From the NCBI GenBank assembly GCA_964458325.1, contig CAYWIM010000001.1, forward strand, positions 76,962 through 140,961: a stretch of DNA of 64,000 nucleotides. Direction: 5' to 3'. Below are positions 40,664 to 63,278 of this stretch, in pieces. Both the position numbers and the translations under genes were made by a program. Position 1 is the first letter of the stretch; each line of letters opens with the position of its first letter. This DNA comes from an uncultured Verrucomicrobiota bacterium. GTDB taxonomy: Bacteria > Verrucomicrobiota > Verrucomicrobiia > Limisphaerales > UBA1319. The notes beneath the pieces were generated by a model, which was not told the DNA's origin, did not search any database, and saw only the letters and a list, made by a program, of their open reading frames with translations.

Positions 40664-40819
40664 GGTAGCTCAAGAGCGGCCGCAAGGGAAGCAATACCCG
40701 CGAAACAAAGGTGCGGCGGCAGCGATTGCTTGTCTCGCGGTCCATGGGTTTCGAGGGCGAGCCAAACGGCTCGTTCGCTCGAACCAAACGCTTGAGAAAA
40801 GCAGAAGAGCTTAGGGGCC

Positions 40820-41080: not shown

Positions 41081-41086
41081 GACCCC

Positions 41087-42136: not shown

Positions 42137-42253
42137 AGCCAAAGCGCACTGAATGATCATGGTCGCTGTCGAGTCTGGGCGATATTGACCATAAAGCGGC
42201 TGCGGCGTCAATGCCCCATTGTCATTGGGGATGGATTGGGGCATTATGGCGCC

Positions 42254-43111: not shown

Positions 43112-43115
43112 GGTT

Positions 43116-46099: not shown

Positions 46100-46243
46100 T
46101 GGCGGGTGAATCAACGCGCATGCCGGCAACAGCATGGGGCAGAATCTTGCGGCGTGTCCAGCGGACTGCGGGTCCCCCACCCCCGGCTTTCGCATGACAT
46201 GGGTGTAGATCTGCATGGCCCCCTATTTACCCCCATTGGTCCC

Positions 46244-48298: not shown

Positions 48299-48334
48299 TC
48301 AGTCCAGGCTTCCACCGGCCGCGTCGAACCGAGT

Positions 48335-49105: not shown

Positions 49106-49169
49106 GCTTTGATCCTACCCCGTCCCGATCTCCGCGCAAGCACCCGATGTGGAGGCAATGAGGCCATCT

Positions 49170-49712
49170 TCATGATTTTCTCAACACATCGACGTAGTCC
49201 GGCCGCTGCTGACGTTCATCGCGCCGTTGGCAAGGCAATCCCGGCCGCTCATCAGCTGGCCGCGCGTGGGCGTGCACATCGGCGCCACATGAAAATTCCT
49301 CGCCATAGCTGAACATCGTGACACGCGCCCGCGGCTGGGGCCCCTCGGTTCTGCCGCATTCGAATCGGACGGGCGAGACGCCGCGCGCGATGGCCGGCCA
49401 ATCCCCGCGAGGGGCGATCGCTCCCAGCAACTCGCCCTTGGGCCCATACGCCTGGCAATCCTCGAGCCCGTTGCACTCGATCCAGTTCCCCGAGGGCAAA
49501 TCGACCGGGAAGAGGATGGCTTTTCCCGCCACCGTGATTTTTGGCGATCGGAGGATGGCCGGCGCCATCGGGAGGGCCCGGATCGGGCCGAGCTGAATCC
49601 GTGTCTGGCGGCCGGGCGCGATGTTTTGCAGCCACACGCTGACCGATTCTACGGCATCGAAATGGATCGTCTCGCGATAGACATTGTAAAGGCTCTTCCG
49701 GTCGTTCCACAC
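49170..49712 (-). CDS. Hypothetical protein, possibly a C-terminal fragment of a larger gene
   Basis: The ORF has plausible globular sequence up to ...RVTMFSYGEEF and then low-quality sequence that overlaps the sulfatase relic in another frame. I recognised no family. Confidence 0.3.
   Translation of the reverse strand: MWNDRKSLYNVYRETIHFDAVESVSVWLQNIAPGRQTRIQLGPIRALPMAPAILRSPKITVAGKAILFPVDLPSGNWIECNGLEDCQAYGPKGELLGAIAPRGDWPAIARGVSPVRFECGRTEGPQPRARVTMFSYGEEFSCGADVHAHARPADERPGLPCQRRDERQQRPDYVDVLRKS
49181..49303 (-). pseudogene. Relic of a sulfatase N-terminal active-site region
   Basis: Frame 49181..49447 reads ARNFHVAPMCTPTRGQLMSGRDCLANGAMNVSSGRT, that is the C-x-P-x-R sulfatase signature with flanks, and then stops. 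No signal peptide precedes it and no remainder of the sulfatase fold follows. Confidence 0.4.
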
Positions 49713-49896
49713 ATAAAATCTTCATGCCGGATTGCTTGGTGACTGCGGCCCATCATGCCTCGAACCGCGATGGGGCGTCAACCTCAGCCGCGCTGTTCCG
49801 GCTCGCCGCGGACGTTGTGCCGGCCGGTCGCGCCTTGCGCCGACGGGCAGGCTGCGATCCAGGGCTGGCTTGCAGAAACCGGAGTCCGATGAGTAA

Positions 49897-50607
49897 ATGT
49901 CGGCGATGGTCCCATCGAAAACAGAATCGCGGCGCGCAGCGTTCACGCTGATCGAGTTGCTGGTGGTCATCGCCATTATCGCGATCCTGGCGGGGATGTT
50001 GCTGCCCGTCCTCGGCCGGGCCAAGGAGGCCGGGCGGAAAACCAAATGCTCGAGCAACCTCCACAACATGGGCCTGGCCATGATCATGTATGCTGACGAC
50101 AATAACGGGTTCATCCCCCGGGGCAACGACCCGGTTTGGTGGCAGGTGCTGACGCCCACGCTGGGCGGCCGATCCCGGCGCGATTATGGCAAGGTCCAGG
50201 TCTACACATGCCCCAGCTATCCGGACAAACGGCAACTGATCTGCTACGTGGTCAATGCCTGGACGTTCAGCAGCCCCCGGGACAAGACCGGTTCCGAGCA
50301 GATCGGCCTCACGCGAATGAACAAGCTCCAAGCCCCCTCCGAAACGATCTACTTTGCCGACAACGAAAACGGATCGTGGCGTCCGGTCATCACCGCGCTG
50401 GGCGCGAGCGGATCGATCGATCTGAACGACGTTTGGAGCCCGTCGCATCTCCCGTATGCGCCCGGCGGCGCCGTTCTCAACGGCGAACGCCGCGTGGCTC
50501 GAGCCCGCCATGGCCAGGGACCCAACCTCCTGTTTTACGACGGACATACGGGTTGGAAAAAGGCCTCGCTCATCGTCGTCGACGACTGGCGCGAACAGCG
50601 ACACTGA
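49897..50607 (+). CDS. Prepilin-type N-terminal methylation domain protein with H-X9-DG motif
   Basis: It has [28 protein letters not shown] and a C-terminal [13 protein letters not shown], which fits H followed by 9 residues and DG. Confidence 0.8.
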
Positions 50608-50729
50608 ATTCAATCTCGTTGGATCGAACAACAGCTCCGTCGTCGCAGGGCTGGCCAGCCGCATGGATTTGATCATTGATCCCCAGTCCTGATGGGCCTT
50701 TAATCTCTCGAGCAACCACAAATGCGACG

Positions 50730-51647
50730 ATGAAAACGAATCCAGCGATCGGCCGGCGGCAATTCCTCCAAAGCAGCGCCATGCTTATCGCGGGCATGGG
50801 CTTTCACAAGGCCCTGCCCGCCATCGCCGCGCAGGTGAAGCTCGGCACTCCCGCGATGGAGAAGCTGGGCTGGCAGCTCAGCGTCCAGCTTTACACCTAC
50901 CGGCGATTCCCGCTTTTCGAGGCGCTCGACATGGTTGCGGCGCTGGGCATCCGCCATATCGAGCCGCTGACCGCTCTCAAAGTGGATGGCCAGCGGCCGG
51001 ATGTGCGCGCCAACGAGGATATGCCGGCCGATGTGCGCAACGAGCTTAAAGCGAGGCTCGCCGATCGGGGCATGTTTCTCTCGAGTATCTTTGCCCAATT
51101 CACGGGCGCGCCTGACCAGGCGAGACGCCTCTTCGAGTTCTGCAAAGAAACGGGCGCCGGCACGATCGTGGCCGAGCCGCCCGCCGACGCTTTGGACCTC
51201 ATCGAGAAACTCTGTGACGAGCACCGAATCAACGTGGCCTTTCACAATCATGCCCGCGGCCAATCGCCCTACTGGAAACCCGAGCAAGTCCTCGACGCCT
51301 GCCGCAACCGGACCGAGCGCATGGGGGCTTGCGCCGACGCGGGGCAATGGGCGCGCTCCGGGCTCGACCCGGTCGAGTCCCTTCGCAAGTTGAAAGGCCG
51401 CATTCTCAGCTTCCATCTGAAGGACATCGCGAAGAAGAACGAACCGAGCTCGCGCAACACGGTCTTCGGGGAAGGAGAAGGGGATTTTGCGAAGGTCCTC
51501 CGGGAGCTGAAGCGCCTGGGCTATCGCGGCCTGACCACGATCGATTTCGAGCATGACACCCCGGCCCTGCAGGAGGATATGGCCCGGAACGTGAAATACG
51601 TCGAGAAACAGGCCAACGAGATCCTCAACGCGCAAGCGGGACGATGA
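50730..51647 (+). CDS. Xylose isomerase-like TIM-barrel protein (sugar phosphate isomerase/epimerase) with TAT signal
   Basis: ATG at 50730 (MKTNPAIGRRQFLQSSAMLIAG), with AFHNH and FHLKD blocks and GEGEGDF...GYRGLTTIDFEHD. Confidence 0.75.
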   Translation: MKTNPAIGRRQFLQSSAMLIAGMGFHKALPAIAAQVKLGTPAMEKLGWQLSVQLYTYRRFPLFEALDMVAALGIRHIEPLTALKVDGQRPDVRANEDMPADVRNELKARLADRGMFLSSIFAQFTGAPDQARRLFEFCKETGAGTIVAEPPADALDLIEKLCDEHRINVAFHNHARGQSPYWKPEQVLDACRNRTERMGACADAGQWARSGLDPVESLRKLKGRILSFHLKDIAKKNEPSSRNTVFGEGEGDFAKVLRELKRLGYRGLTTIDFEHDTPALQEDMARNVKYVEKQANEILNAQAGR

Positions 51648-51742: not shown

Positions 51743-51976
51743 ATGCAAGAACAATGGCTGTCCGTTGATGAGATCGCACCGGATCCGGGCGTCAAACCGG
51801 ACACGACCTGGAAGGGTGCGGATGCAACGATGCCAGCCGACAAGGCCGGCCGCCTCTGGAAATTCCTCGCCTCCGAGGTGGACGCTGGGGTCAAAGGCGG
51901 CCAAACGGCTCAAGGAGCTAAAGAAGCCGCCCAGACCGCCCGGAAAATCCGCGCCAGAAACAACTCCAAAACATGA
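51743..51976 (+). CDS. Small divergent excisionase/MerR-type (HTH_17-like) DNA-binding protein
   Basis: MQEQWLSVDEIAPDPGVKPDTTWKGADATMPADKAGRLWKFLASEVDAGVKGG parallels the consensus WLSVDEIA..LGV..DT.Y.WI....MPA.K.GRLWKF...EVD.WV..G. The stop overlaps the next start (ATGA at 51973-51976). A longer form starting at 51644 (ATGA overlap with the isomerase stop) is possible. Confidence 0.5.
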   Translation: MQEQWLSVDEIAPDPGVKPDTTWKGADATMPADKAGRLWKFLASEVDAGVKGGQTAQGAKEAAQTARKIRARNNSKT

Positions 51977-53286
51977 ACGCAGTCATCAAACCTTGGCTGA
52001 GCACCGGGCTGATCGTTGCCTTGGCAGGCAACGCGGTGCTGACGGCCATCCTGATCCTCAAGCTGAGCCGCTTTGACGATACGAAAAAGCAGGCCGAGGA
52101 GGTTGAGGTTTTGGCCCAACAAAAACGCACCGAGCTGGCTGCCCTGAAGATCGAGATCGAATCCCTGAACAAGCAGAAAGACTCGTTAGCGCCATATGTT
52201 GCAGACTGGCAAAAGCTGCTGAGCGAGAAGGCAGCAGCCGAAGCGGCTCTGGCCACCAGTGAAGCTAAGCAGCGGCAAACGGATTCCGACGCGACGCAGG
52301 CAGAAAAACGCCTACAGGAAGTTCGGAAGAATCTCGCCGAAGCCCAGAAACAGAAAGCGGACACAGCCGCGGCCATTGAAAGCCTCTCATCAGAATTCGC
52401 GGTGCTGACGAGAACCAATATCGATGTCAGGACCCAGCTGGACCTGGCCGCGGAAGCGCAGCGGCGCTACGCCGAGGCAACGAACGCCCTCGCCAATGCG
52501 GATGTGCGGCGAACGCAGCTGGAAGCCGATGCCACCGCGGCCCAGGCCAAATTTGACCAGCTCCAAAAGGAGGCGGACGATCTTCGCCAGACGCGCGAGA
52601 AGCTAAGCGCCGAAACGGCTCCGCTCCGGCAGCAGATTCAGTCGCTCAGAGAGCAACTGATTCCGTTCGAGCAGAAGGCGACCGACTTGAAGGCGCTCCA
52701 AGCCGCTGCTCAACAGGAGCAGGAAAAGCTCGCGAGAGCTCAGCAACAGCTCGCGGCAGCCGAAACGCGCACCGCCGAGATCGAAGCGCGGCAGCGGCAG
52801 GCAACATCGGAGTTTGCGCAGGTGACCAATCGCATGGATCAGGCGCGGGCGCAGGCCGCAGACTGGGAAATCAAGCGCGACACGGCCCAGCAGGCGGCGA
52901 TGCGGGCCGGCCAGGATCTCGCTGCCGCACAGAAACTTGCCGCCGAAGCCCAGGCCGTCTACGACCAAACCTCTCGAGAGCATGCAAAGGCAGTGGCTCA
53001 GTTGGCGGCGGCAACAAAAGAGCTCGAGCAAACGCGAAAAGACCAGGCGGATTCGGAAGCGCGCCTTGTGGCCGCGAAGGCCGCCCTCGAGAAGGCGGAT
53101 TCGGAGACCACAACCGCTCGGATGCTATCTCTCGAATTCTCCGCCAAGCAGAGCCAACTGACCCGCGACACCTCGCGTCTTGAAGCCTCCATCGAGCGGC
53201 TGAAAACGGAAAAGGATTCGTTGGAAAAGGAAATCGGCCGCATGGAAGCGCAGCGCCAGAAGACCCCGCCGAGCGGGGCTCAATGA
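51973..53286 (+). CDS. Membrane-anchored long coiled-coil protein (island gene 2)
   Basis: 437 aa. The N-terminal hydrophobic helix WLSTGLIVALAGNAVLTAILILKL (nt about 51994-52062) is followed by about 400 aa of uninterrupted heptad-like A/E/Q/K/L/R-rich sequence. Confidence 0.7.
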   Translation: MNAVIKPWLSTGLIVALAGNAVLTAILILKLSRFDDTKKQAEEVEVLAQQKRTELAALKIEIESLNKQKDSLAPYVADWQKLLSEKAAAEAALATSEAKQRQTDSDATQAEKRLQEVRKNLAEAQKQKADTAAAIESLSSEFAVLTRTNIDVRTQLDLAAEAQRRYAEATNALANADVRRTQLEADATAAQAKFDQLQKEADDLRQTREKLSAETAPLRQQIQSLREQLIPFEQKATDLKALQAAAQQEQEKLARAQQQLAAAETRTAEIEARQRQATSEFAQVTNRMDQARAQAADWEIKRDTAQQAAMRAGQDLAAAQKLAAEAQAVYDQTSREHAKAVAQLAAATKELEQTRKDQADSEARLVAAKAALEKADSETTTARMLSLEFSAKQSQLTRDTSRLEASIERLKTEKDSLEKEIGRMEAQRQKTPPSGAQ

Positions 53287-53312
53287 GGCATGTATTTTGA
53301 CAGGAGTCCACT

Positions 53313-55286
53313 ATGCTAAGCACACAAATTTTCCAGTGGTCGCTGTGGGGGCTTTCATTGCTGGCCGGAGTCGGGGCAATTCTGGCGCTTTTCAAACTGC
53401 GTTACGCGGAGCGGTTCCTGCCAGAATGGAACAAGGTCAAGGAGATCGAAGCGACGCTCCCGGTTCGCCAGGAGGAGCTTCGGCAGGTTTCGGAAACCAT
53501 TCAACTCCGGGTCCAGGAACTGGCGAAACTGGAGGGAGAAGTGGGGCGCCTGCAAATTCTTCGTGAGTGGGAAAAGCAGAATCCCGATGCCCCCGCAAGG
53601 ATCTCTCAAATGATAAATGACGTGGACCGCGGAAAGTCTGAGCTCGAAGCTATCCAAACAAAGCTTGGTCAGGAGGAGAGCCGCCTCATAGATAACACGA
53701 AACAAGTCAACGCATTGGCACTTCAGAAGGCTCAAATCGAAGGACAAATCCCAGGATTACGGGACCAAATGGTCTCACTGCATAAACAAAAGAACGACCT
53801 TGAGGTCAAGCTGCGCGACATGGATGACCAGCGCAGGATTCTTGATGCAAGACTGGCCGTTTTGAAGATCGAAATCCAGGATCATGAAGCTCACCTCACA
53901 GCCTTGCGGCCTCAGGTGGCAAAGGCCGAGCAAGATAAGGAAATAGCAGAGCGCGAGAGAAAGGAAGCTGAAGGCGCGCGAGACGCAGCGCGCGCGGAAG
54001 TCAGCAACCTCCAGAAACTTAAGGAGTCTCTTGAGCAGCTTCTCAAGCGAACAGAAATAACCTTAGAGAAAACCGGTGTTACAGGTTCGAAAAGCTATTC
54101 CGATCTCTTTGCACCTGTCTTCAGCCGCAGCTTGCTGTCAAACAAGGGGTTTCAGCAAGAAATTGAAGCTCTGCAGCGCACTCGCGATTATATTAAAAGC
54201 CAAAACCTCATATTTCCGGAGCGGGTGCTTTACGCATTTCATACTTCACTTAAAACGAGTGAGATTTGCCCTCTTGTCGTACTGGCTGGCATCAGCGGTA
54301 CAGGCAAAAGCGAACTTCCTCGCCATTATGCTGATGGCATGGGGATGCATTTCCTGCTTAGCGCGGTCCAGCCTAGGTGGGATAGCCCGCAAGACCTGTT
54401 TGGATTTTACAACTATTTGGAAAAGAAGTACCGAGCGACTGAGTTAGCGCGCGCCTTTGTTCAATTTGAGAAGCCGCACCGAGCGATGCTGGAGGAACTG
54501 GCCAAGGAGCAAGGAGGCGAACTATGTAGCCTCAATGAATATATGCTGCTGGTGCTCTTGGATGAGATGAACCTGGCTCGGACCGAGTATTACTTCTCGG
54601 AATTTTTATCCAAGTTGGAGACACGCAGAAAACTTGATGAAAACAACGATGAGAAGCGCGCGCGTGCCGAAATAGAGCTCGACATGGGCAGCTTGCTCGG
54701 TGGGCTCACTTCTATTCGCCTTTATCCAGGAAAAAATGTCTTGTTCGCGGGAACAATGAATGAGGACGAGTCTACACAAGCTCTTTCTGATAAAGTTGTA
54801 GATCGTGCCAGCGTTCTTCGATTCTGGCGTCCCAAGCGAACAAACCTTGAAACACGAGAAAAACCAAACTTGCCGACGACGAATGGATTGAAGATCGATA
54901 CTTGGCAGCAATGGGTGCGGACCTCTGACAATTTAGCGTCAAAAGACAAAGATATTACATCTTGGATAAATAGGTTGAACGACGCGCTAGAAAGAATGGG
55001 ACGCCCCTTCGCTTTTCGAGTTGATGAGGCCATACGCTGCTACATAGCCAACTATCCTCGTGGAAACGTGCAAGACTGGCATAAGCGCGCAATGGCGGAT
55101 CAAATTGAGCAGCGCATCTTTCCGAAGCTACGCGGCATTGAAATCGAGCTCGCTCAAGAATCGCTGCGGGGCATTGGTGAGATTATTAAGCAGTTGGAAG
55201 ACGAACCGCTGAGCAAGGCGTTCCAAGCAAGTCACGAAAACCAGTCAACTTTTCTTTTTCGTGGCGTGGTGCGCGGCGACGATTGA
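53313..55286 (+). CDS. Membrane-anchored coiled-coil protein fused to a McrB/AAA_5-like NTPase (island gene 3)
   Basis: An AGGAG sequence lies 7 nt upstream of the ATG. It has a TM helix (WSLWGLSLLAGVGAILALFKL), a coiled coil at about aa 30-255 and Walker A LAGISGTGKS (54285-54308). It also has VQPRWDSPQDLFGFYN, Walker B LLVLLDEMNLARTEYYFSEFLS (54546-) and GTMNEDES...DRASVLRF (54750-). Confidence 0.75.
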   Translation: MLSTQIFQWSLWGLSLLAGVGAILALFKLRYAERFLPEWNKVKEIEATLPVRQEELRQVSETIQLRVQELAKLEGEVGRLQILREWEKQNPDAPARISQMINDVDRGKSELEAIQTKLGQEESRLIDNTKQVNALALQKAQIEGQIPGLRDQMVSLHKQKNDLEVKLRDMDDQRRILDARLAVLKIEIQDHEAHLTALRPQVAKAEQDKEIAERERKEAEGARDAARAEVSNLQKLKESLEQLLKRTEITLEKTGVTGSKSYSDLFAPVFSRSLLSNKGFQQEIEALQRTRDYIKSQNLIFPERVLYAFHTSLKTSEICPLVVLAGISGTGKSELPRHYADGMGMHFLLSAVQPRWDSPQDLFGFYNYLEKKYRATELARAFVQFEKPHRAMLEELAKEQGGELCSLNEYMLLVLLDEMNLARTEYYFSEFLSKLETRRKLDENNDEKRARAEIELDMGSLLGGLTSIRLYPGKNVLFAGTMNEDESTQALSDKVVDRASVLRFWRPKRTNLETREKPNLPTTNGLKIDTWQQWVRTSDNLASKDKDITSWINRLNDALERMGRPFAFRVDEAIRCYIANYPRGNVQDWHKRAMADQIEQRIFPKLRGIEIELAQESLRGIGEIIKQLEDEPLSKAFQASHENQSTFLFRGVVRGDD

Positions 55287-55289
55287 GAA

Positions 55290-57053
55290 ATGCGACCTTT
55301 TCTGTTTGCTGAACCGTGGGATTGGCTGCTGGGAACACACTGCTTATTGGAACCTCCTGTTGCGGTGGAGGGGGGTGGATCGCCGCGGCTGCTGACAAAT
55401 CTTCCCAAGGAATTTATGGACCTGGACCGGCCAACTGTTGCATTGCCGACCGGCAAGGCCGCGCTGCCGGCGTGTTCCTTCCCATTCCTGCTAGGTGCCG
55501 AACCTGCCCAGGCGTGGCATATACCGACCGACGCCAGCACGCACCGCCGGGATGCCGACTTCCGTCTGGCAATATCGTTCAGAAACGAAGTGTTTGACCT
55601 GCTCCAGCAAGGGATCCTTCTGCGGCCACCGCCCAAGGCAACCGACGAAGGCATCATTGGTACGTTGAGCGGGGCTGTGGCACAATGGATTGACTGGCAG
55701 GTGCGAGCCTTTCAGGAGCTGGGCCACATTCCTGAAGTCCACGATGGCGATTTCGAAGCTGCTACCCGCTCGGCAGTCGTTCGCCGAACATGGGAATCAG
55801 CAAAGAAAGCTTGGCTGAAGAACGAGACAGAAACGCCGCGGATGGCTCTGATCGTCGAACTGAGCCGGGATCAATATTTGCATAGTGCTCTCGAATCTGT
55901 GAGCCGCCATCCGCGGCGCATTCTCCAGCGCTACCGCACCGATACAGCACTGCCTCGCATTCAGGAGTTGGACTCCGCCTGCATTCGAGATTTCGCCCGA
56001 CGGCCGGGTATTACCGCAGTCGAGAAAGCCGGCTCCCGTCAGCGGCTGCTGGCCGTTATGCGTCGAGAGCAGCGAAACACACTCGAGAATAAAGTCGCAG
56101 CGTGGGTCATGGAAGCCGAAGTTGATCTTGCGCGGGAATATGCTGTTGCAAATGCGAGCTTCGATTGCAGTGACCCCAAAGTCGCAAGTGTTCGCCGCTT
56201 CGGAAACCGAAGCGCCCAATGGCGAAAATCCGAAGAACTGTTTGATGTAGCAGCCCTGGCTCACCACGTAGAAAGCCCGAATTACCCGCTCCAGTTCGAC
56301 GCCCGCTACAAATTGGTGTGGAAGACCTACCGCCGAATTCTCCGGGAGAAGAGCGTCGAAGACGATGCCTGGGCCTGGCAGCGTGTTCTTTGGGGCGAGA
56401 CAGGGCGTCAATTGGTGGCCTGCTGCCTTAACCAAATGTTCAACCCAATCGGCATCAGCACCCCATTTTACCGCACCGAATCACGCCAAGGCTGTTGGAC
56501 GGAGCCACCCGTTGCGCCGGGACCATTCCAGACCAATTCAGGCGACTGCCTCTTGTTTGACAGCCGCGACTTGGATGATGCGTCGGGCCACGCCCGTCGG
56601 CGCTGGATCGAGCGCCCTCCATTCCGTGGCGCCCAATATCTCGGCGCCAGCGGTTGCGACCAGGTTCTTTTTTGGCCAAGTAGCAACCGCGCGTTACTTG
56701 TATGGCATTTCTATCATGCCTCGCTTGAAAGAGCCGAGGGCGGACTCCAGGGTATTCTTGCCCGATGTGCTTGTGGGCTTGAGCAGCTTGGTGCCGATAT
56801 ACGCCGATACGCACAGAATCAGGTCCATCTGAGCGGGTTGCTCCTGATCGCCGATCTAGGCCGCAGTGCCACTCAGGATGCCCGTCAAAACGAAAGGTGT
56901 GTTGCCCTCGAGCCTGGTCCCCGTCTCACTTCCGGCGGCGGAGTCAACGCCCTGTGCCTGCCGCCGCCCGACGTGGATGCATGGCGCCGGTTCTCAAGCG
57001 ACCTTAAAGAAGGTTTTGAACTCGTAGTCGAGGAAACGTTGCGCACAACATGA
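55290..57053 (+). CDS. McrC/DUF2357-like partner protein, nuclease motif apparently degenerate (island gene 4)
   Basis: The gene starts 3 nt after the NTPase gene. The block RHPRRILQRYRTDTALPRIQELD...RREQRNTLENKVAAWV (56076-) resembles the McrC/DUF2357 ..DTPENRF.K.. region. Where PD...(D/E)xK is expected, the sequence reads GCDQVLFWPSSNRALLVWHFYHAS (56655-56723). Confidence 0.45.
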   Translation: MRPFLFAEPWDWLLGTHCLLEPPVAVEGGGSPRLLTNLPKEFMDLDRPTVALPTGKAALPACSFPFLLGAEPAQAWHIPTDASTHRRDADFRLAISFRNEVFDLLQQGILLRPPPKATDEGIIGTLSGAVAQWIDWQVRAFQELGHIPEVHDGDFEAATRSAVVRRTWESAKKAWLKNETETPRMALIVELSRDQYLHSALESVSRHPRRILQRYRTDTALPRIQELDSACIRDFARRPGITAVEKAGSRQRLLAVMRREQRNTLENKVAAWVMEAEVDLAREYAVANASFDCSDPKVASVRRFGNRSAQWRKSEELFDVAALAHHVESPNYPLQFDARYKLVWKTYRRILREKSVEDDAWAWQRVLWGETGRQLVACCLNQMFNPIGISTPFYRTESRQGCWTEPPVAPGPFQTNSGDCLLFDSRDLDDASGHARRRWIERPPFRGAQYLGASGCDQVLFWPSSNRALLVWHFYHASLERAEGGLQGILARCACGLEQLGADIRRYAQNQVHLSGLLLIADLGRSATQDARQNERCVALEPGPRLTSGGGVNALCLPPPDVDAWRRFSSDLKEGFELVVEETLRTT

Positions 57054-59761
57054 ACGGCATTGTCGGCATTGGCATTGACCTCACCCAGCACGTTCCGCTG
57101 GTGAGCTTTGCCGTGTGTCCAGCCGCTCTGCGGGCAGACGACACAATGGATGCCCAGATTCTCGCAAACCAGTGGCCACCAAAACTGGAACTTGCCGGAG
57201 TGTTCCATCCGCATGTGCCTTGTGCTGTTCTGCCTGTGCACTCGGGGGAGCCGCTGCTCATCGGGGATGCGGCTGCAATCCATCGCCGGTCCTCTGGCCT
57301 CCCATGGCCACCGGAAGCCCAAGTGCCTTATGGCAACGACACCAGTTTCGGATTTGGGCGGGTGCCATTAGCAGCAGCATGGAGTGCGCTGCTGCCCCAA
57401 GCCGATGAAAAGGAGTCCCTAACCCATCGTAGCGATCACGCGTTCAAGTGGTCTCCAGAAAAACGAGAATACACATCTTATGCTGGCACCATTTTGGCTT
57501 CAAGCATCAAGGCTTTTCTCGCTGCCGCCCGAGTCCCTATTTCATCCCGGCTGACAACGATCGTGGTTCCTGATGCTCTCGATGAGGCCGGGCAGCAAAT
57601 TCTCCTCGAGAGCCTTGCCCAGGTTGGCATGGCTGCCGACAACCTCCATTTGTTGCCCAGGCCGCTGGCTGTGGCCTTGAATTGGTGCAGCACTGCCAAG
57701 GAACCAGTGGGAGTTGCCGACGAGGTCGAGGCGGGCACACCAATCGGCCGTTTGCGAGTGCTGACAACTGCGCTCGACCTTTGGGAAGCCGTCTCTCTGG
57801 AACTCCGGGTTCGCTCCCACGCCGGGCGAACTTGGCTTTTGCCTGTTCGCGATCGTGCCAGGCTGAACGCGGCCTTGCCGGAGCTTCAAACACCCGGTCT
57901 GAGCTTCGCTATAGCCCTCGCACGTGCCGAAGACAATGGTGCTCATCTTCATTGGTGGCACCGTCTTTTCGCCAGCGATTGGCTCACCCAACGTCTTGCC
58001 GCTGCGCGGGATCTCTCATCTGAGGAGATTCAAAGTCTTCGCGAGATTCGTTCCTCACGGCCCCCGGAAACATTGCGTGAGCAACTTGAACAAATCGAAG
58101 TGCTTAGACCCATCACGACGCGCCTTTTCCGCGATACCCCGTCCCTTCGTGACGATGTGGCTCGCAAATGGCAGGCCCAGGAGCGCCAAGTCGGTTTCGC
58201 GAACTATCCCTGCAAAGCGGTGTTAGCGGATGGAGCCCTATCCTCGCTCAGGATGGAGCGCGGCATTCCTCTTGGGCAATTCGTCGTGCAGCATGACGGC
58301 GATCCTCACTCACCCGATTGGCTTGCGGGATACACCGCCGCCGTTCACGGTGCCGCGCTCGCTGCAGCCGCCATTGGGTCCGGCCTGCCGTGCTACCGCG
58401 AGACATTATTGCCGCTGGACCTCTATGTCTTCGCAAAAAATGATTACGGCGATCTTATCCCGCAATGGCGAGAACTGGTTAAAACGGAAAGCGTTGAGGC
58501 AGGAAGAACATGGAAATGCCCAGCACCCGTCGTCGGCCTTCAAATCCGCGAAAAACAAGACCGACTTCGAGTGCTTCTTCGGCGAAAACTTGCAGGCACC
58601 GCACCATTTCGGCAAGTTACTTCAGAGCTATTAAAACCAGCTCCCAATGACGAGCCCGTTCAAATAAATATTGAGGTAAGGCCGGGCCAGGGTTTCGCCC
58701 AAGTTCGCATTGACTCCCTCACTCCAGGCTTGTTTGCCAGTCGTCTTGACTGGCGTACGATGGCCAAGTGCGATGAACCAAAGTGTCCGCCACTCGCATA
58801 CATTCCTGGTGTTTCTCGGATAATTCCGGACCGCGAGATGTTCGATCGTGCCCAAAGCACTCTGGAGGAGGTGCTACTGGCGCTCGTGAGAAACAGCCCG
58901 GTGGTTAGGCAGCGGCTTCGCGAGGCTATCAAACTGCTAAACAAGTGGCCGCTTGCGCATAACGTGGAGCAGTCCAGGGGGCACACGATGGCCAAAGATT
59001 TTATGATTCATTACGGCGTCATCGGCTCAGAGGGGCGCTTGGATGCTTTGCCTTCTCCCGAGCTCGCACGCAGCCTTCGGAACGCCATTGGCGAAAAATT
59101 TGCTTCATTGGTCAGGCGAGGTGCTGTATCCTCGCCCTTAGGTAATTCTTTGCTCCGAATCGCGGGATGGTTCTACATCGCTATTCCAGATGAATGCCTT
59201 ACCTTTCTTCGGTCAAGGCTTCCCAAGTCATCAGAAGATAGTGTCATGCTGTCGGCAGTTGAGCTTCACGCCATCGGGTTATCCTTGTCACAACCCAGCG
59301 ACACAAGCCGGTTTTTCCCTGTATGCACTCAGGCATTAAGAAGCCCTAAGGCCAAGCCCAACAATTATCTCCGTGCAGTCCGCAACATTTGTCGCTTCCG
59401 GAACGACGCTTTGAGCCCGGCGACAATATCTGATGCAGTGCTAAACCAGCTTGTAGATGAGTTGTTTGAAATAATGCGCAGACATCTTGTTAAAGGGGGT
59501 TTCGCACCTCGTATTGTAGCAAATTGTTTAGAAACGTTGCTATTTTTGCTTAAGCGTCGGCGTTACGATGCTGGTTTCCTTGCGCCGACCTCTTCCCTTG
59601 CCGGATCTTTAATTCACTTCCTCGAAAGAGTGAGCAAGTATCATAACTGGCGGCTGCCGCCACGGTTGCAGCAAGTAGGCCAAACCACGGTGAGATTCCT
59701 CAAGATGGAAGGAACGCTCACCGACTTGGAAGACCTCTTAAGCGATGATCAGGAGCTGTAA
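57050..59761 (+). CDS. Hsp70/actin-fold (ASKHA)-like protein with beta-rich and long helical C-terminal regions (island gene 5)
   Basis: It makes an ATGA overlap with gene 4. IVGIGIDL (57065-) resembles phosphate-1. TIVVPDALDEAGQQILLESLAQVGM..NLHLLPRPLAVALNW (57560-) parallels Hsp70 ITVPAYFNDAQRQATKDAG.IAGL.V.RIINEPTAAALAY. LDLWEAVS stands in place of DLGGGTFD, and AAVHGAALAAAAIG (58340-) parallels EAVA.GAA. About 450 further aa follow. Confidence 0.55.
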   Translation: MNGIVGIGIDLTQHVPLVSFAVCPAALRADDTMDAQILANQWPPKLELAGVFHPHVPCAVLPVHSGEPLLIGDAAAIHRRSSGLPWPPEAQVPYGNDTSFGFGRVPLAAAWSALLPQADEKESLTHRSDHAFKWSPEKREYTSYAGTILASSIKAFLAAARVPISSRLTTIVVPDALDEAGQQILLESLAQVGMAADNLHLLPRPLAVALNWCSTAKEPVGVADEVEAGTPIGRLRVLTTALDLWEAVSLELRVRSHAGRTWLLPVRDRARLNAALPELQTPGLSFAIALARAEDNGAHLHWWHRLFASDWLTQRLAAARDLSSEEIQSLREIRSSRPPETLREQLEQIEVLRPITTRLFRDTPSLRDDVARKWQAQERQVGFANYPCKAVLADGALSSLRMERGIPLGQFVVQHDGDPHSPDWLAGYTAAVHGAALAAAAIGSGLPCYRETLLPLDLYVFAKNDYGDLIPQWRELVKTESVEAGRTWKCPAPVVGLQIREKQDRLRVLLRRKLAGTAPFRQVTSELLKPAPNDEPVQINIEVRPGQGFAQVRIDSLTPGLFASRLDWRTMAKCDEPKCPPLAYIPGVSRIIPDREMFDRAQSTLEEVLLALVRNSPVVRQRLREAIKLLNKWPLAHNVEQSRGHTMAKDFMIHYGVIGSEGRLDALPSPELARSLRNAIGEKFASLVRRGAVSSPLGNSLLRIAGWFYIAIPDECLTFLRSRLPKSSEDSVMLSAVELHAIGLSLSQPSDTSRFFPVCTQALRSPKAKPNNYLRAVRNICRFRNDALSPATISDAVLNQLVDELFEIMRRHLVKGGFAPRIVANCLETLLFLLKRRRYDAGFLAPTSSLAGSLIHFLERVSKYHNWRLPPRLQQVGQTTVRFLKMEGTLTDLEDLLSDDQEL

Positions 59762-59765
59762 TTCG

Positions 59766-62700
59766 ATGATAGGCCGCATCATTCAAACGCTTGCTCTTGC
59801 GCATGGTCCGCAGACTGCAGCAGAGGTTTGCGATTCCATGCGGCGTGGTGGTCTTAAAATAGAAAAGTATGAAGTTGTTCAACAATTGCGGCAACTTCAG
59901 AAAAGAGGAATCGTAAAGCTGGAAATAGTGAGATGGCGACTACTGCAAATGCCGAAAGAGACAGACTTTCTACCCGGCGAAAAGGTCAAAGAATCTGCTG
60001 GCTCGCTCCCTATAGGCAAAGATGGTGGCGCGTCGGTTTGGCAATCGAGCGCAAACACCGTAATCGTGGCGCCGCCGCAGATGCCGCCAGGGCGGTGGGA
60101 CTTGTTTCGGCGGTTCTGCCGCTACTACATGGACTGTCTTCTGCAGGAAGAGGCGCCGCAATTGCGGTGCTATGTCGACAATGAGGATGACACGTGGATC
60201 GTTGCACCGCAGGTTCCGTGGGCGAGGCTGAGTGCAAATGGAGGGTTTGCCATCCCACTGTCGCGCGAGCAGGCCGCGTTTCAACGCAATCGCGTGCGCC
60301 GGGGTGAGGAGGAGTGCATTTACCTATGCTACCCGGTCCTGCTTGTGAAGCCGAAGGAGACTTCGCGGTTCGTGGTCCCGCTGTTTGCACAGCCGATGCA
60401 GGCAGAATGGCACGGCGGCATCATGCATCTTCAACCCGATGGTCCGATCGCCGTCAATGGTGCGTGGCTCGAATACTCATTCCGTCAGCGAAAAGAGCGG
60501 GAGGCATTCCTTCGCGCCATGGGATTTTTGAACGACGCCGGGGCGGACGAGGAAGGCGAAGGGGTGTCAACCGGACCGAGAGATTTCGCACGGCTTGCTC
60601 AGGACGCAGCGCATTACATCCATGATGCCGCCCGTTTTGCCGAGGACATCCGGCCGTTTCAGCTCGGCCCGCCGCCGAACTGGGAGAAAGCGCAACCGGG
60701 TCTGTACAACACGGCCCTTCTGACCCTTGGCCCCCGACTGAAATACACCCGGAGCCTCCTGCGCGACCTGCGAGACATTTCTGAAAAATTCACCGACCAG
60801 GAATTGGACGGAACGGCTCTGGTGTCCCTTTTTCCGCATGACCCGGCACCGGCCGAGCCCCAGGTGCCGCCTCCGGCAACCGCCGAACCTTCGGTGCCGG
60901 CCGATACGCCTTTCTTTGCCGCTGAAGATCTTGCACAAACTCGCCTTCTTCATACCAGCCAGCGCGCGGCTGTCGTGAACTCGCTCGCGGAGAGAGTGTC
61001 CATGGTGACCGGTCCGCCTGGCACTGGCAAATCCGAAGTCGTGGCGGCAATGCTGCTAAATCATTTGCTCAGGGGACAGCCTGCGCTCTTTGCCAGCAAG
61101 AACCACCAGGCTCTTGACGCTGTTCTGCCCCGTCTGAATGCCGCTGTCGAAGGCGGCGATCTCATCATCCAGACTTCAAGCCGCGAACTCGCACAACGAC
61201 AGAATTATCTGGGCAAGCTGCAAAGTCTTCTGGCCCGTCCGTCTCGGCCCGATGCGGCGCGAGGCGACGGCTTCCGCCGCCAGCTTGCCGGTTCTTTTCA
61301 GGAGCAGCGCACAGCCCTCAGGGACATTGGCACGATTGAGCGCGCTCGGAGCGAGTATGAGGCGGTGAATGCAAAGCTCACTGAGCTGCGCAAAAGCCTG
61401 CCCTTTCACGCGCAATCGGATGAATGCATGGCCTCCTGGCCCGCCGCGATGTCCCCTGAACTCCTGGCCGAAGCGCAGACCGAGCTGCGCCTGGCGATGG
61501 CCCAGCCAGAAAACCTTCTCGAAAGGATCTGGCAATGGTTTCGAAGAACTCAAATTGAAGCCAGGCGCAAGGCGGCTCGAGCGCCATTCGAGGGGCTTCC
61601 ATCCCCGTTCGCCGACCGCAACCTGCCTGGCGCACAATCACCGGCAGAAGCGTGGGACGAATACTTTGGTATCTGGGGAACTTGGGCTGAAGCTGCCCGC
61701 GCCGCCGCGCTTGCGCGCAGTTGCGAGCAGCGCATTGCTCAATTGCCACAGGCCGAAGAATGTAATCGCCGGCTCGAACACGCCCAGCAGGCGATTGAAC
61801 GCCAGACCAGAGAGTGGATGGCCTGGGCGGCCGGCGGCTTGCCGAACGTGCTGTCGCCAGCGGACCGCGAATCGCTCGCAAACCTGCGTGCCGGCATCCA
61901 GAACTGGGGGCCGGACCGATTCGCCCGGGAACTCAAGAAACACTTCCAGCTCATTCTCCGCGCGTTTCCTTTATGGTCGGTCTCCAACCTTTCGGCGCGC
62001 AGCGCGATTCCCCTTGTGCCGGCACTGTTCGATCTTGTCATCATTGACGAGGCCAGCCAGTGCGACATCGCGTCCGTTGTCCCTTTGCTGGCCCGGAGCC
62101 GGAAGGCTGTTTTTGCCGGTGATCCCATGCAGTTGGCCCATGTCAGCACGCTGGGCGCGGCCGTCGAGCAAACCCTGCTCCAGCAATACGATCTCACGGA
62201 TGCGCAGGTGCAGCGGTTCACGTATCGCGTCAACAGCGCATTTGTCCTCGCGGATGCGAACGCGTCGATTCCTGAGAGCGCTCGGGTTCGCCTTGATCTC
62301 CATTTCCGATCGCATGGCCTCATCGCGGATTACTGCAATGATGCGTTCTATTCGAAGACGCTGAATGTCGTGACGCTTACTGAGCGCCTCAATGTTCCGC
62401 CGGGCCACCAGCCAGGAATCCACTGGACACATGTGGCCGGCACACTGAGACCGGGCCCGACCGGCGCGTGGTGTGCTGACGAGATCGAAATAATCGAGCG
62501 GGAGCTGCGCTTATTGGCCGCGAGCGGTTACCGAGGCACCATCGGTGTGGTTACGCCTTTCAGACAGCAAATGATCCATATCAGGGATACCTTCGATGCG
62601 AATGGAGCCCTCGCCCCCGATTTCATGGAGCGCGTGCGCTTTCTGGCCTCAACCGCTCATGGTTTCCAGGGTGACGAGCGTGACCTGATTCTATTCAGCC

Positions 62701-63278
62701 TTTGCGCGGGCCCGGAAATGCCCGAAGGCGCAACCATTTTTCTTCGCGAGAATCCCAATCTGTTCAATGTTGCCGTGTCTCGCGCCCGGGCCGTTCTGCA
62801 CGTGGTCGGCAACCGCGATTGGGCGCTCAACTGCGGGGTCCCGTTCATCGAAAAACTCGCGCGCCGCACTGTCCGTGGCGCTACGAGCGCACCTCCGAAT
62901 CCGCCGGAGCCTTACCAATCCCCGTGGGAGAAAACCCTTGCCGATGCCTTGGCTGAGGCCGGCATCAAAGCGATCCCACAATACCCCATTGCGGGGCGGT
63001 TTCTCGACTTGGCCATTCTCAGCCCCGTCAAGGTCGATGTGGAAGTGGACGGCGAATCTGTCCACCGGACCGCCGGCGGCGGGCGAAAGGACGACGATTA
63101 CTGGCGCGACCTGCAGCTCCAAAGCCTTGGCTGGAAGGTGTGCCGGTTCTGGGTGTATGAGCTTCGCGAAGACCTGGATCGTTGCATTCGAAGGTTGAAT
63201 ACAATGCTCAGTGAATCATTGAGGAGGCCGACCGGGAACGTGTTGCCGCAAGATGAAAACGAAAGCCGTACGCAATGA
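59766..63278 (+). CDS. SF1 (UPF1/DNA2-like, AAA_11/AAA_12) helicase with N-terminal winged-helix-like domain, large helical insertion and C-terminal Vsr/DUF559-like PD-(D/E)xK nuclease (island gene 6)
   Basis: The alternative ATG at 59745 overlaps gene 5 by 17 nt. Helicase motifs are: I GPPGTGKS (61011-61034), II DLVIIDEASQ (62031-), III VFAGDPMQL, HFRSH..IADYCNDAFY, IGVVTPFRQQ, TAHGFQGDERDLILFS and FNVAVSRAR. The C-terminus reads RFLDLAI...VDVEVDGESVH...DYWRDLQLQSLGWKVCRFW (about 62916-63203). Confidence 0.85.
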   Translation: MIGRIIQTLALAHGPQTAAEVCDSMRRGGLKIEKYEVVQQLRQLQKRGIVKLEIVRWRLLQMPKETDFLPGEKVKESAGSLPIGKDGGASVWQSSANTVIVAPPQMPPGRWDLFRRFCRYYMDCLLQEEAPQLRCYVDNEDDTWIVAPQVPWARLSANGGFAIPLSREQAAFQRNRVRRGEEECIYLCYPVLLVKPKETSRFVVPLFAQPMQAEWHGGIMHLQPDGPIAVNGAWLEYSFRQRKEREAFLRAMGFLNDAGADEEGEGVSTGPRDFARLAQDAAHYIHDAARFAEDIRPFQLGPPPNWEKAQPGLYNTALLTLGPRLKYTRSLLRDLRDISEKFTDQELDGTALVSLFPHDPAPAEPQVPPPATAEPSVPADTPFFAAEDLAQTRLLHTSQRAAVVNSLAERVSMVTGPPGTGKSEVVAAMLLNHLLRGQPALFASKNHQALDAVLPRLNAAVEGGDLIIQTSSRELAQRQNYLGKLQSLLARPSRPDAARGDGFRRQLAGSFQEQRTALRDIGTIERARSEYEAVNAKLTELRKSLPFHAQSDECMASWPAAMSPELLAEAQTELRLAMAQPENLLERIWQWFRRTQIEARRKAARAPFEGLPSPFADRNLPGAQSPAEAWDEYFGIWGTWAEAARAAALARSCEQRIAQLPQAEECNRRLEHAQQAIERQTREWMAWAAGGLPNVLSPADRESLANLRAGIQNWGPDRFARELKKHFQLILRAFPLWSVSNLSARSAIPLVPALFDLVIIDEASQCDIASVVPLLARSRKAVFAGDPMQLAHVSTLGAAVEQTLLQQYDLTDAQVQRFTYRVNSAFVLADANASIPESARVRLDLHFRSHGLIADYCNDAFYSKTLNVVTLTERLNVPPGHQPGIHWTHVAGTLRPGPTGAWCADEIEIIERELRLLAASGYRGTIGVVTPFRQQMIHIRDTFDANGALAPDFMERVRFLASTAHGFQGDERDLILFSLCAGPEMPEGATIFLRENPNLFNVAVSRARAVLHVVGNRDWALNCGVPFIEKLARRTVRGATSAPPNPPEPYQSPWEKTLADALAEAGIKAIPQYPIAGRFLDLAILSPVKVDVEVDGESVHRTAGGGRKDDDYWRDLQLQSLGWKVCRFWVYELREDLDRCIRRLNTMLSESLRRPTGNVLPQDENESRTQ

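What the first reader, a model, noticed from the sequence alone, without database searches (positions are those of the whole stretch)
57050..59761. 903-aa Hsp70-fold homologue with degenerate nucleotide-binding motifs and a long helical tail
Several blocks line up with Hsp70 nucleotide-binding-domain landmarks:
- the N-terminal GIVGIGIDL;
- TIVVPDALDEAGQQILLESLAQVGM..NLHLLPRPLAVALNW;
- the late AAVHGAALAAAAIG.

However, the phosphate-2 loop DLGGGT is LDLWEA here, and the adenosine-motif GG is AD-G (VLADGALSS). ATP binding or hydrolysis may therefore be altered or lost.

Downstream there is a beta-rich stretch, ...VQINIEVRPGQGFAQVRIDS..., that is reminiscent of a substrate-binding-domain sandwich. 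After it come about 300 aa of helices, which in related systems as I recall them may be a separate protein.

Chaperone-fold proteins embedded in restriction-like operons are rare, and their mechanism is unexplained.
Basis: partly seen in the sequence, partly recalled or inferred. Interest (0 to 1): 0.7.

Follow-up and report, generated by a model that had tools for sequence, protein, structure and literature searches.

The report
Hsp70-like subunit of CoCoNuT defence operon
The 903-residue protein really does have the Hsp70 chaperone fold with a rewired nucleotide pocket, but it belongs to a published, experimentally untested family: CnuD of the "Type III-B CoCoNuT" McrBC-like anti-phage systems.

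Summary
The ORF at 57050-59761 (+), 903 aa, is real and conserved. It has 65 close clusters and 723 representatives in a 1.84-billion-protein library, nearly all about 800-900 aa.

A confident AlphaFold2 model (pLDDT 85.9) matches only Hsp70s in the PDB: BiP, DnaK, Hsc70, Hsp110, Ssb, at E down to 6e-10. The match covers the nucleotide-binding domain (NBD) and the beta substrate-binding domain (SBD-beta). The last 310 residues form an ARM/HEAT-like solenoid.

Sequence methods barely detect the relationship. There is no Pfam hit, and the profile comparison with DnaK reaches only E=2.6e-4.

The Hsp70 catalytic set is replaced by other residues that are invariant in this clade:
- E171 becomes R204.
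- DLGGGT becomes TTALDL, followed by invariant W245-E246.
- GG becomes DG.

The gene sits in a tightly coupled five-gene operon:
- a coiled-coil protein;
- an McrB-like GTPase with an NxD motif;
- a DUF2357 McrC-like protein lacking (D/E)xK;
- this protein;
- an SF1 helicase fused to a Vsr-like nuclease.

This is the architecture published as Type III-B CoCoNuT (Bell et al., eLife 2024), where the protein is called CnuD.

The phosphate-2 register is off by three residues. The tail is never a separate gene. The class is already described, so this is a new member of a known kind with modest interest.

The parts
51973..53286 (+). CnuA-like protein, 437 aa. It has an N-terminal hydrophobic helix followed by a long coiled coil and no other domain.
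   Evidence: Only coiled-coil-type Pfam and PADLOC matches. Sequence. The hydrophobic N-terminus is conserved in orthologues. Syntenic in related loci.
53313..55286 (+). CnuB, an McrB-like AAA+ GTPase, 657 aa. It has an N-terminal hydrophobic helix and a coiled coil. Motifs: Walker A GISGTGKS (326-333), Walker B LDEMN (416-420), and an NxD signature MNEDE (482-486).
   Evidence: Pfam AAA_5, weak: E 1.9e-4, 21.9 bits against a curated cut-off of 22. PADLOC PDC-M26A 2.9e-40. Motif positions. GT(M/I)NEDE is conserved in distant loci.
55290..57053 (+). CnuC, an McrC-like protein, 587 aa, with a DUF2357 domain. Its C-terminal region has a conserved GCDQ...LLVWH(F/Y)YH and no (D/E)xK.
   Evidence: Pfam DUF2357 8.9e-7. 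Alignment of 7 orthologues.
57050..58384 (+). CnuD residues 1-445: Hsp70-like nucleotide-binding domain with substituted catalytic motifs. These are GIDLTQH (phosphate 1), PRP with R204 in place of DnaK E171, TTALDLWE (phosphate 2), and LADG (adenosine).
   Evidence: AF2 model pLDDT 85.9. Foldseek hits to Hsp70 NBDs. hhalign to DnaK E 2.6e-4. Column conservation.
58385..58423 (+). CnuD residues 446-458: LPCYRETLLPLDL, an invariant segment at the position of the Hsp70 interdomain linker (DnaK VLLLDV).
   Evidence: Invariant columns. Y449 is nearly invariant family-wide. The positional equivalence is inferred from domain order in the model.
58424..58831 (+). CnuD residues 459-594: beta-rich domain equivalent to Hsp70 SBD-beta. 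It includes VQINIEVRPGQGFAQVRIDS.
   Evidence: Strands from 456 to 593 in the model. Foldseek alignments of 610-650 columns to 520-540-residue NBD+SBD-beta chains.
58832..59761 (+). CnuD residues 595-903 plus the stop codon: ARM/HEAT-like alpha-solenoid tail, in place of the Hsp70 helical lid.
   Evidence: Tail-only AF2 model pLDDT 90.3, about 14 helices. The best Foldseek matches are importin-alpha, beta-catenin, transportin and HspBP1, but at E 0.06-0.4, which is not significant. The published reference CnuD tail matched transportin-1.
59745..63278 (+). CnuH(E), 1177 aa. It has a weak N-terminal HTH and an SF1 UPF1/DNA2-like helicase. Walker A is at 423-430 and DEASQ at 768-772, so about 337 residues are inserted between them. 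A C-terminal Vsr-like nuclease is fused.
   Evidence: Pfam AAA_11, AAA_12, MTES_1575 (1.8e-12), DUF559, and HTH_20 (0.039). PADLOC MkoC, MkoA, Hhe. Motif positions.

Best explanation
The protein is CnuD, the Hsp70-fold subunit of a Type III-B CoCoNuT, a coiled-coil McrBC-like Type IV restriction system.

**Shown here**
- It has an Hsp70 NBD plus SBD-beta fold.
- The helical lid is replaced by an ARM/HEAT-like solenoid.
- The Hsp70 catalytic residues and glycine loops are replaced by a different set of residues that is itself invariant.
- The gene is translationally coupled inside a conserved cnuA-cnuB-cnuC-cnuD-cnuH operon.

**Inferred**
- CnuD does not cycle ATP the way DnaK does. It acts as a fixed, ATP-state-like adaptor or sensor.
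- It docks on the CnuB(GTPase)/CnuC complex. The published fusions of this unit to McrC or McrB homologues argue for physical association.
- It supplies the target-recognition surface (SBD-beta plus solenoid) that CnuB lacks.
- CnuC has lost its nuclease motif, so cleavage would be done by the CnuH helicase-Vsr nuclease.
- The ligand is unknown. It could be RNA, as Bell et al. propose, or a phage or ribosome-associated protein.
For: **Fold**
- AF2 pLDDT 85.9, pTM 0.76.
- The top 50 PDB hits are all Hsp70 family, best E 6e-10. The viral library returns only Hsp70 homologues.
- Docked, ATP-like structures fit better: 6zmd, 6eob, 7krv, 7kru give TM-target 0.46-0.54 and rmsd about 9-10. Chains I recall as undocked or ADP-state fit worse: 5obv, 7o6r give TM-target 0.39 and rmsd 15-22.

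**Motifs**
- DnaK E171 maps to invariant R204. DLGGGT maps to TTALDL. D8 maps to D10.
- The substitutes are invariant in 28 sequences, and R204 and G395 are conserved across 55 diverse members.

**Context**
- All five genes are syntenic in Verrucomicrobiota and Planctomycetota loci.
- Homologues at about 20-25% identity sit in the same module, in the order H-A-B-C-D. One of these lies inside a BREX locus.
- CnuB has the NxD motif.
- CnuC has DUF2357 and no (D/E)xK.
- CnuH is fused to a Vsr-like domain.

**Literature**
- The published definition of Type III-B and of CnuD matches point by point.
Against: - No biochemical data exist for any CnuD.
- Nucleotide binding cannot be judged without coordinates or assays.
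- D10, T12 and G395 are retained, so some nucleotide binding remains possible.
- I could not compare directly with the published reference CnuD (PDS29263.1). The Type III-B supplementary sheet is truncated in the held copy.
- Published Type III-B systems are primarily alphaproteobacterial. This clade is in Verrucomicrobiota and Planctomycetota.
- The docked-state resemblance rests on an AF2 model and on TM-scores around 0.5.
Confidence: 0.8

Rival explanations
1. CnuD is an RNA-binding module, as Bell et al. propose. The pseudo-ATPase Hsp70 unit would bind viral, aberrant or ribosome-associated RNA and direct the system to RNA. This differs from the best explanation only in the ligand.
For: - Published argument: degenerate Walker-like motifs, reported RNA binding by Hsp70 and DnaK, and HEPN RNases in the sister types II and III-A.
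- CnuH belongs to the UPF1-like helicase family.
Against: - No RNA-binding domain is detectable in CnuD by Pfam.
- The effector here is a Vsr/DUF559-type PD-(D/E)xK domain. From general knowledge these are typically DNA endonucleases.
- ARM/HEAT solenoids and SBD-beta bind proteins or peptides more often than RNA (general knowledge).
Confidence: 0.3
2. CnuD is still an active ATP-driven remodeller. It would use a rewired active site, with Arg-based catalysis through R204 or R79/R80, to assemble or disassemble the coiled-coil complex or to remodel a target protein.
For: - The substituted motif residues are invariant, so the pocket is under selection.
- D10 and T12 of phosphate 1 and G395 of the adenosine motif are retained.
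- A linker-like LLPLDL is conserved.
Against: - There are no glycine-rich phosphate loops.
- DnaK E171, D194 and T199 are all replaced.
- D10 is not conserved in the wider family.
- No J-domain or GrpE-like partner is present in the operon.
Confidence: 0.12
3. The operon is not a defence system. It would be a membrane-tethered coiled-coil, GTPase and actin-fold apparatus for a housekeeping role such as DNA or RNA quality control or a cytoskeletal function.
For: - In this window the flanking genes are housekeeping: panC-like, nadB-like, MFS, and kinase plus ECF sigma.
- CnuA and CnuB carry conserved N-terminal hydrophobic helices.
Against: - The distribution is patchy: only 5 loci among 185,579 species genomes.
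- GC is lower than in the flanks.
- Relatives sit beside RM systems, Cas9 and BREX, or beside SNIPE and NERD genes.
- The module contains McrB, McrC and Vsr nuclease homologues.
Confidence: 0.05

Closest known systems
CnuD of Type III-B CoCoNuT systems (Bell, Koonin et al., eLife 2024, PMC11090510)
   Same: - It is a separate gene encoding an Hsp70-like NBD/SBD plus HEAT-like repeats, with degenerate nucleotide motifs.
- The operon partners are the same: CnuA (coiled coil only), CnuB (NxD McrB-like GTPase with coiled coil), CnuC (DUF2357, no catalytic PD-(D/E)xK), and CnuH fused to a Vsr-like nuclease with an N-terminal wHTH.
- There is no TerY-P module.
   Different: - This clade lies in Verrucomicrobiota and Planctomycetota, not Alphaproteobacteria.
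- The gene order here is A-B-C-D-H. More distant relatives have H-A-B-C-D.
- CnuA and CnuB have conserved N-terminal hydrophobic helices that the paper's text does not mention for this type.
- Direct comparison with the reference sequence was not possible.
CnuCD of Type III-A CoCoNuTs, and the Hsp70-McrB fusions of the basal NxD clade
   Same: The same Hsp70-like NBD/SBD (+HEAT) unit is associated with an McrBC-like core.
   Different: There the unit is fused to the McrC N-terminal domain or to the McrB GTPase. Here it is a free-standing gene, translationally coupled to cnuC.
Canonical Hsp70 (DnaK, Hsc70, BiP)
   Same: Overall NBD plus SBD-beta fold and domain order. Local motif relics remain: GIDL; VVPxxxxxxQQ; xxPxAAAL; the GAA helix.
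   Different: - Only 11-14% identity, no Pfam HSP70 hit, and no hit to PDB sequences with the profile.
- The catalytic residues E171, D194 and T199 and the Gly loops are replaced.
- The helical lid is replaced by a 310-residue solenoid.
- No J-protein or GrpE partner is nearby.
Non-cycling Hsp70 relatives (Hsp110/Sse1; Ssz1 of the ribosome-associated complex)
   Same: They appear among the top structural matches (2qxl, 3c7n, 5mb9, 7x3k). From general knowledge they work in a stable ATP-like docked state as partners or holdases rather than as cycling chaperones. That is the behaviour inferred here.
   Different: They keep canonical nucleotide-binding loops and bind ATP (general knowledge). CnuD has lost the glycine loops.
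PADLOC candidate system PDC-M26
   Same: CnuB matches PDC-M26A at 2.9e-40.
   Different: No PADLOC model matches CnuD, CnuC or CnuA specifically. The composition of PDC-M26 beyond component A was not checked.

Membership tests
CnuD / Type III-B CoCoNuT | An Hsp70-like NBD/SBD followed by HEAT-like repeats, encoded as a gene separate from cnuC | tested here: met
   AF2 plus Foldseek. It is a separate ORF overlapping cnuC by 4 nt.
CnuD / Type III-B CoCoNuT | Partner McrB-like GTPase with an NxD (not NxxD) signature and a long coiled coil | tested here: met
   GTMNEDES at 482-486, Walker A and B present, and coiled-coil matches over residues about 45-290. Conserved in distant loci.
CnuD / Type III-B CoCoNuT | Partner McrC homologue with DUF2357 and an inactivated PD-(D/E)xK domain | tested here: inconclusive
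   DUF2357 is met. The C-terminal conserved GCDQ...LLVWHFYH has no (D/E)xK in 7 orthologues. The fold of that region was not modelled.
CnuD / Type III-B CoCoNuT | A separate CnuA protein consisting only of coiled coil | tested here: met
   437 aa with only coiled-coil-type matches. It also has an N-terminal hydrophobic helix.
CnuD / Type III-B CoCoNuT | UPF1-like SF1 helicase CnuH with a large insertion after Walker A, fused directly to a Vsr-like nuclease, with an N-terminal wHTH | tested here: met
   AAA_11 and AAA_12. About 337 residues lie between Walker A (423-430) and DEASQ (768-772). MTES_1575 and DUF559 match at 1062-1154. The wHTH is supported only weakly, by HTH_20 at E 0.039.
CnuD / Type III-B CoCoNuT | No TerY-P triad in the operon | tested here: met
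   No VWA, phosphatase or kinase triad within or next to the five genes. The window ends 722 nt after cnuH, so further downstream is unseen.
CnuD / Type III-B CoCoNuT | Sequence homology to the published reference CnuD (PDS29263.1) or placement in the published CnuB tree | not testable with these tools
   The Type III-B sheet of the supplement is truncated and the sequence is not held.
Canonical Hsp70 chaperone (Pfam PF00012) | Sequence match to the HSP70 family model | tested here: not met
   No Pfam hit for this protein or for any of 55 family members. The profile finds no PDB sequence at E<=10.
Canonical Hsp70 chaperone (Pfam PF00012) | Actin-like NBD followed by a beta-sandwich SBD | tested here: met
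   Foldseek E 6e-10 to 1e-8 against BiP, DnaK, Hsc70, Ssb and Sse1, over NBD plus SBD-beta.
Canonical Hsp70 chaperone (Pfam PF00012) | Glycine-rich phosphate-1 and phosphate-2 loops, the adenosine GG, and catalytic D8/K70/E171/D194/T199 (DnaK numbering) | tested here: not met
   D8 maps to D10 and is kept. E171 maps to R204, D194 to T239, GGG to ALD, T199 to L244, and GG to DG. The K70 equivalent is uncertain: a low-confidence alignment places it at R79.
Canonical Hsp70 chaperone (Pfam PF00012) | Alpha-helical lid (SBD-alpha) after SBD-beta | tested here: not met
   It is replaced by a 310-residue ARM/HEAT-like solenoid.
Canonical Hsp70 chaperone (Pfam PF00012) | ATP hydrolysis coupled to substrate binding and release | not testable with these tools
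   Requires biochemistry.

The most novel reading that the evidence does not exclude
Type III-B-like CoCoNuTs are membrane-tethered machines. CnuA and CnuB are each anchored by a conserved N-terminal transmembrane helix. In them an Hsp70-fold pseudo-ATPase is frozen in the docked, ATP-like conformation. It uses its SBD-beta and solenoid as the invader sensor, binding a phage protein, a nascent chain or an RNA near the membrane. That binding licenses the CnuB GTPase and the CnuH helicase-nuclease. This would be a chaperone fold repurposed as an immune receptor.
Probability: 0.2. Interest if true: 0.7.

Novelty: new member of a known kind. Interest (0 to 1): 0.4.

Why it matters
No CnuD or Type III CoCoNuT has been studied experimentally in the literature I could search. 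This means every function assigned to the Hsp70-like unit is still a prediction.

This locus is a compact five-gene example of the system. It comes with a confident structural model and a defined list of invariant substitute residues to mutate: D10, T12, Q13, R79, R80, R104, R204, D243, W245, E246, G395 and the LPCYRE...LLPLDL segment. It could therefore serve as a test case for how a chaperone fold works inside a restriction-like machine.

It also widens the known host range of this type to Verrucomicrobiota and Planctomycetota. It adds one observation that may be new: predicted membrane anchoring of CnuA and CnuB.

Tried and rejected
**Searches that found nothing or too little**
- Pfam and PADLOC scans of the 903-aa protein gave no hits. 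Pfam on 55 diverse family members gave nothing relevant.
- The profile of 28 homologues found no PDB sequence at E<=10.
The deeper 55-sequence profile was needed to reach E 2.6e-4.
- tblastn of the protein and of a distant relative (P0195) against 72,556 plasmids gave no match.
- Rfam over the whole window at gathering thresholds gave no RNA family.
- The promoter and terminator scan of the operon showed nothing above shuffled expectation.
- Looking up the published Type III-B accession list failed, because the sheet is truncated in both held copies.
- The second word-indexed homologue search, with distant members, returned only 9 proteins and no organism names. It did allow their contigs to be inspected.
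- The exact-sequence cluster look-up gave no accession or organism for the window protein.

**Readings considered and rejected**
- Active DnaK-type chaperone: the motifs are lost.
- Tail as a separate gene: never seen.
- Decayed relic: the substitute residues are invariant, which indicates selection.
Full report
**1. The observation**

The ORF 57050-59761 (+) exists, starts with ATG and encodes 903 aa. The start codon overlaps the stop of the upstream gene (ATGA). The 3' end overlaps the next gene by 17 nt, so the gene is translationally coupled on both sides.

The protein is under selection.
- A word-indexed search of 5.8 billion proteins found 65 clusters at 38-100% identity. Almost all are about 900 aa and none carries a Pfam domain.
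- An exhaustive profile search of 1.84 billion representatives found 723 at E<=1e-3 and 214 at E<=1e-30. Most are 800-900 aa and match the profile from about residue 50 to about 895.
- An alignment of 28 sequences, 38-59% identical to the window protein, has 102 invariant columns.

**2. Fold**

Sequence methods alone barely see the relationship.
- There is no Pfam or PADLOC hit, and none for 55 diverse family members.
- The family profile finds no PDB sequence at E<=10.
- hhalign of the 28-sequence profile against E. coli DnaK gives E=0.3. A deeper 55-sequence profile reaches E=2.6e-4 over residues 6-266, aligned to DnaK 4-220.

Structure is decisive. AlphaFold2 with the 28-sequence alignment gives pLDDT 85.9 and pTM 0.76.
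- Against the PDB, Foldseek returns 83 hits at E<=1e-3, and the top 50 are all Hsp70-family chains. They include BiP 6zmd_A at 6e-10, DnaK 7krv, Hsc70, Ssb, Sse1/Hsp110 and Ssz1.
- For the two-domain chains the alignments run 610-650 columns against 520-540-residue targets. The match therefore covers NBD and SBD-beta.
- The viral structure library returns only viral Hsp70 homologues.

Two-domain structures that, from my knowledge of these entries, are domain-docked and ATP-like fit best. For 6zmd, 6eob, 7krv and 7kru the TM-target is 0.46-0.54 and rmsd 9-10 A. For undocked or ADP-state chains (5obv, 7o6r) the TM-target is 0.39 and rmsd 15-22 A. This is weak evidence that the model adopts a docked arrangement.

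A separate model of residues 594-903 has pLDDT 90.3 and shows about 14 helices. Its best matches are ARM/HEAT solenoids: importin-alpha, beta-catenin, transportins including 5j3v, and the Hsp70 exchange factor HspBP1. The E-values are 0.06-0.4, so this is a resemblance of class and not evidence of homology.

**3. Motifs**

The two hhalign runs agree on the following register.

| DnaK | This protein |
|---|---|
| IGIDLG, D8 | GIGIDL, D10 |
| ITVPAYFNDAQRQ | TIVVPDALDEAGQQ |
| IINEPTAAAL, E171 | LLPRPLAVAL, R204 |
| YDLGGGTFD, residues 193-201 | LTTALDLWE, residues 238-246 |

So D194, G196-G198 and T199 become T239, A241-L242-D243 and L244. F200 and D201 become W245 and E246.

The adenosine GG is D394-G395.

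The K70 equivalent cannot be fixed. A low-confidence stretch of the alignment places it at R79 of the invariant HRR motif.

The replacements are not decay.
- D10, L11, T12, Q13, H78, R79, R80, R104, R204, D243, W245, E246 and G395 are invariant in the 28-sequence clade. So is the segment LPCYRE-LLPLDL, apart from three variable positions (T452, L454, D457).
- R204, R80, R104 and Y449 are at least 90% conserved, and G395 is invariant, across 55 members down to about 20% identity.
- D10 is not conserved in the distant members. Their phosphate-2 region reads HLGLDxFE.

The LLPLDL segment sits where Hsp70 has its interdomain linker VLLLDV. That equivalence is inferred from domain order.

**4. Genomic context**

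The gene is the fourth of five co-directional, abutting genes.
1. 51973-53286: 437 aa with only coiled-coil signals.
2. 53313-55286: 657 aa. It has a coiled coil plus an McrB-like AAA+ domain (a weak Pfam AAA_5 match just under the cut-off, and PADLOC PDC-M26A 2.9e-40). Walker A is GISGTGKS, Walker B is LDEMN, and the signature is GTMNEDES, which is NxD rather than the NxxD of E. coli McrB.
3. 55290-57053: 587 aa with DUF2357, the McrC N-terminal domain. Its conserved C-terminal region (GCDQ...LLVWHFYH) has no (D/E)xK in seven orthologues.
4. The 903-aa protein.
5. 59745-63278: 1177 aa. It has a weak N-terminal HTH and an SF1 helicase with about 337 residues inserted between Walker A and motif II. 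A C-terminal MTES_1575/DUF559 (Vsr-like) nuclease is fused.

The same five genes in the same order occur in four Verrucomicrobiota loci. A Planctomycetota contig shows C-D-H up to its end.

A 38%-identical homologue has A-B-C-D without the helicase. It lies between an RM system and a Cas9 locus.

Homologues at only about 20-25% identity sit in the same module, with the helicase first (H-A-B-C-D). One is embedded in a BREX locus. Another lies beside dynamin-like, SNF2, SNIPE and NERD-kinase genes.

In the window itself the upstream neighbours are housekeeping genes. The operon's GC (0.48-0.62) is below that of the flanks (0.60-0.67), which suggests acquisition. Only five loci were found among 185,579 species-representative genomes.

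**5. Comparison with the literature**

Bell et al. [quoted passage not shown] Their Type III-B has these components:
- CnuA, coiled coil only.
- CnuB, a coiled coil plus GTPase.
- CnuC, with DUF2357 and an inactivated PD-(D/E)xK.
- CnuD, an Hsp70-like NBD/SBD plus HEAT-like repeats, encoded separately in III-B and III-C and fused to CnuC in III-A.
- A CnuH helicase with an insertion after Walker A, an N-terminal wHTH, and a directly fused Vsr-like nuclease.
- No TerY-P module.

Every architectural criterion I could test is met. CnuC inactivation and the wHTH are supported only weakly.

I could not compare with their reference sequences, because the III-B sheet is truncated. Their III-B systems are mostly alphaproteobacterial, whereas this clade is in the Verrucomicrobiota and Planctomycetota phyla.

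No later experimental paper on CnuD was found in the held library.

**6. Mechanism**

Shown: the Hsp70 fold, the replaced catalytic set, the solenoid in place of the lid, and the conserved operon.

Inferred:
- CnuD is a non-cycling Hsp70-fold subunit that associates with CnuB/CnuC. The published fusions to McrC or McrB homologues are Rosetta-stone evidence for this.
- CnuB here has a hydrophobic helix and a coiled coil where E. coli McrB has its DNA-reading domain. CnuC lacks the nuclease motif.
- The simplest division of labour is therefore that CnuD (SBD-beta plus solenoid) recognises the invader-derived ligand, the CnuB GTPase transduces the signal, and the CnuH helicase-Vsr nuclease cuts.
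- Whether the ligand is RNA (Bell et al.) or a protein or peptide is open.

Rivals are a still-active, rewired ATPase, a non-defence role, and a pure relic. The first two are listed with their tests. The relic reading is rejected because the substitute residues are conserved.

**7. Verdict**

The item is a new member of a published, computationally defined and experimentally untested family. Interest is moderate.

The one point that may add to the literature is that CnuA and CnuB carry conserved N-terminal hydrophobic helices. These occur in close and in distant loci and suggest membrane tethering.

Noticed in passing
window 51973-52070 (CnuA N-terminus) and 53313-53400 (CnuB N-terminus); also L001, L003-L006, L009-L011: Both coiled-coil proteins begin with a hydrophobic helix of about 20 residues. 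The Kyte-Doolittle 19-residue maximum is 1.8-2.9 in nearly all cases (1.56 for L010 CnuA). The helix is conserved in orthologues and in loci whose CnuD is only about 20-25% identical. This suggests the whole system is membrane-anchored. The CoCoNuT paper's text mentions transmembrane helices only for a different, FtsB-like clade.
   Followed up: partly
L005 about 15155-17769 (Verrucomicrobiota DAOPPX010000001.1): The CnuH homologue is split by an insertion of about 2.6 kb. About 30 residues of the query are matched on both sides. It may be a mobile element or intron inside the helicase-nuclease gene.
   Followed up: no
L003 (GCA_028268125.1 JAOLKG010000009.1): The most divergent close homologue (38% identity) has cnuA-B-C-D but no cnuH. 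It lies between an MvaI/BcnI-Vsr-Dcm restriction-modification cluster and a Cas9-Cas1-Cas2 locus.
   Followed up: no
L010 (JGI 3300044604) and L009 (ENA ERZ795105): Distant versions of the module are embedded in other defence loci. One lies inside a BREX operon, between PglX and BrxC/PglY-PglZ-BrxD. Another follows a dynamin-like GTPase plus SNF2 helicase and precedes SNIPE, NERD-kinase and PglX-like genes.
   Followed up: partly
window 53000-60000 versus 40000-51000: The operon has lower GC than the flanking housekeeping genes (0.60-0.67). It drops to 0.48 in the cnuB GTPase region and 0.49 at the cnuD/cnuH junction. This is consistent with horizontal acquisition.
   Followed up: partly
window 46244-48298 (-) and 48335-49105 (-): A Ser/Thr protein kinase (Pkinase 2.4e-56) lies next to an ECF-type sigma factor (Sigma70_r2), a few kb upstream of the operon. 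No link to the operon was established.
   Followed up: no
P0077 (1106 aa, from the representative search): One family member carries an N-terminal extension of about 295 residues before the CnuD-like part. It might be a fusion analogous to CnuCD. No DUF2357 hit appeared in the Pfam scan.
   Followed up: no
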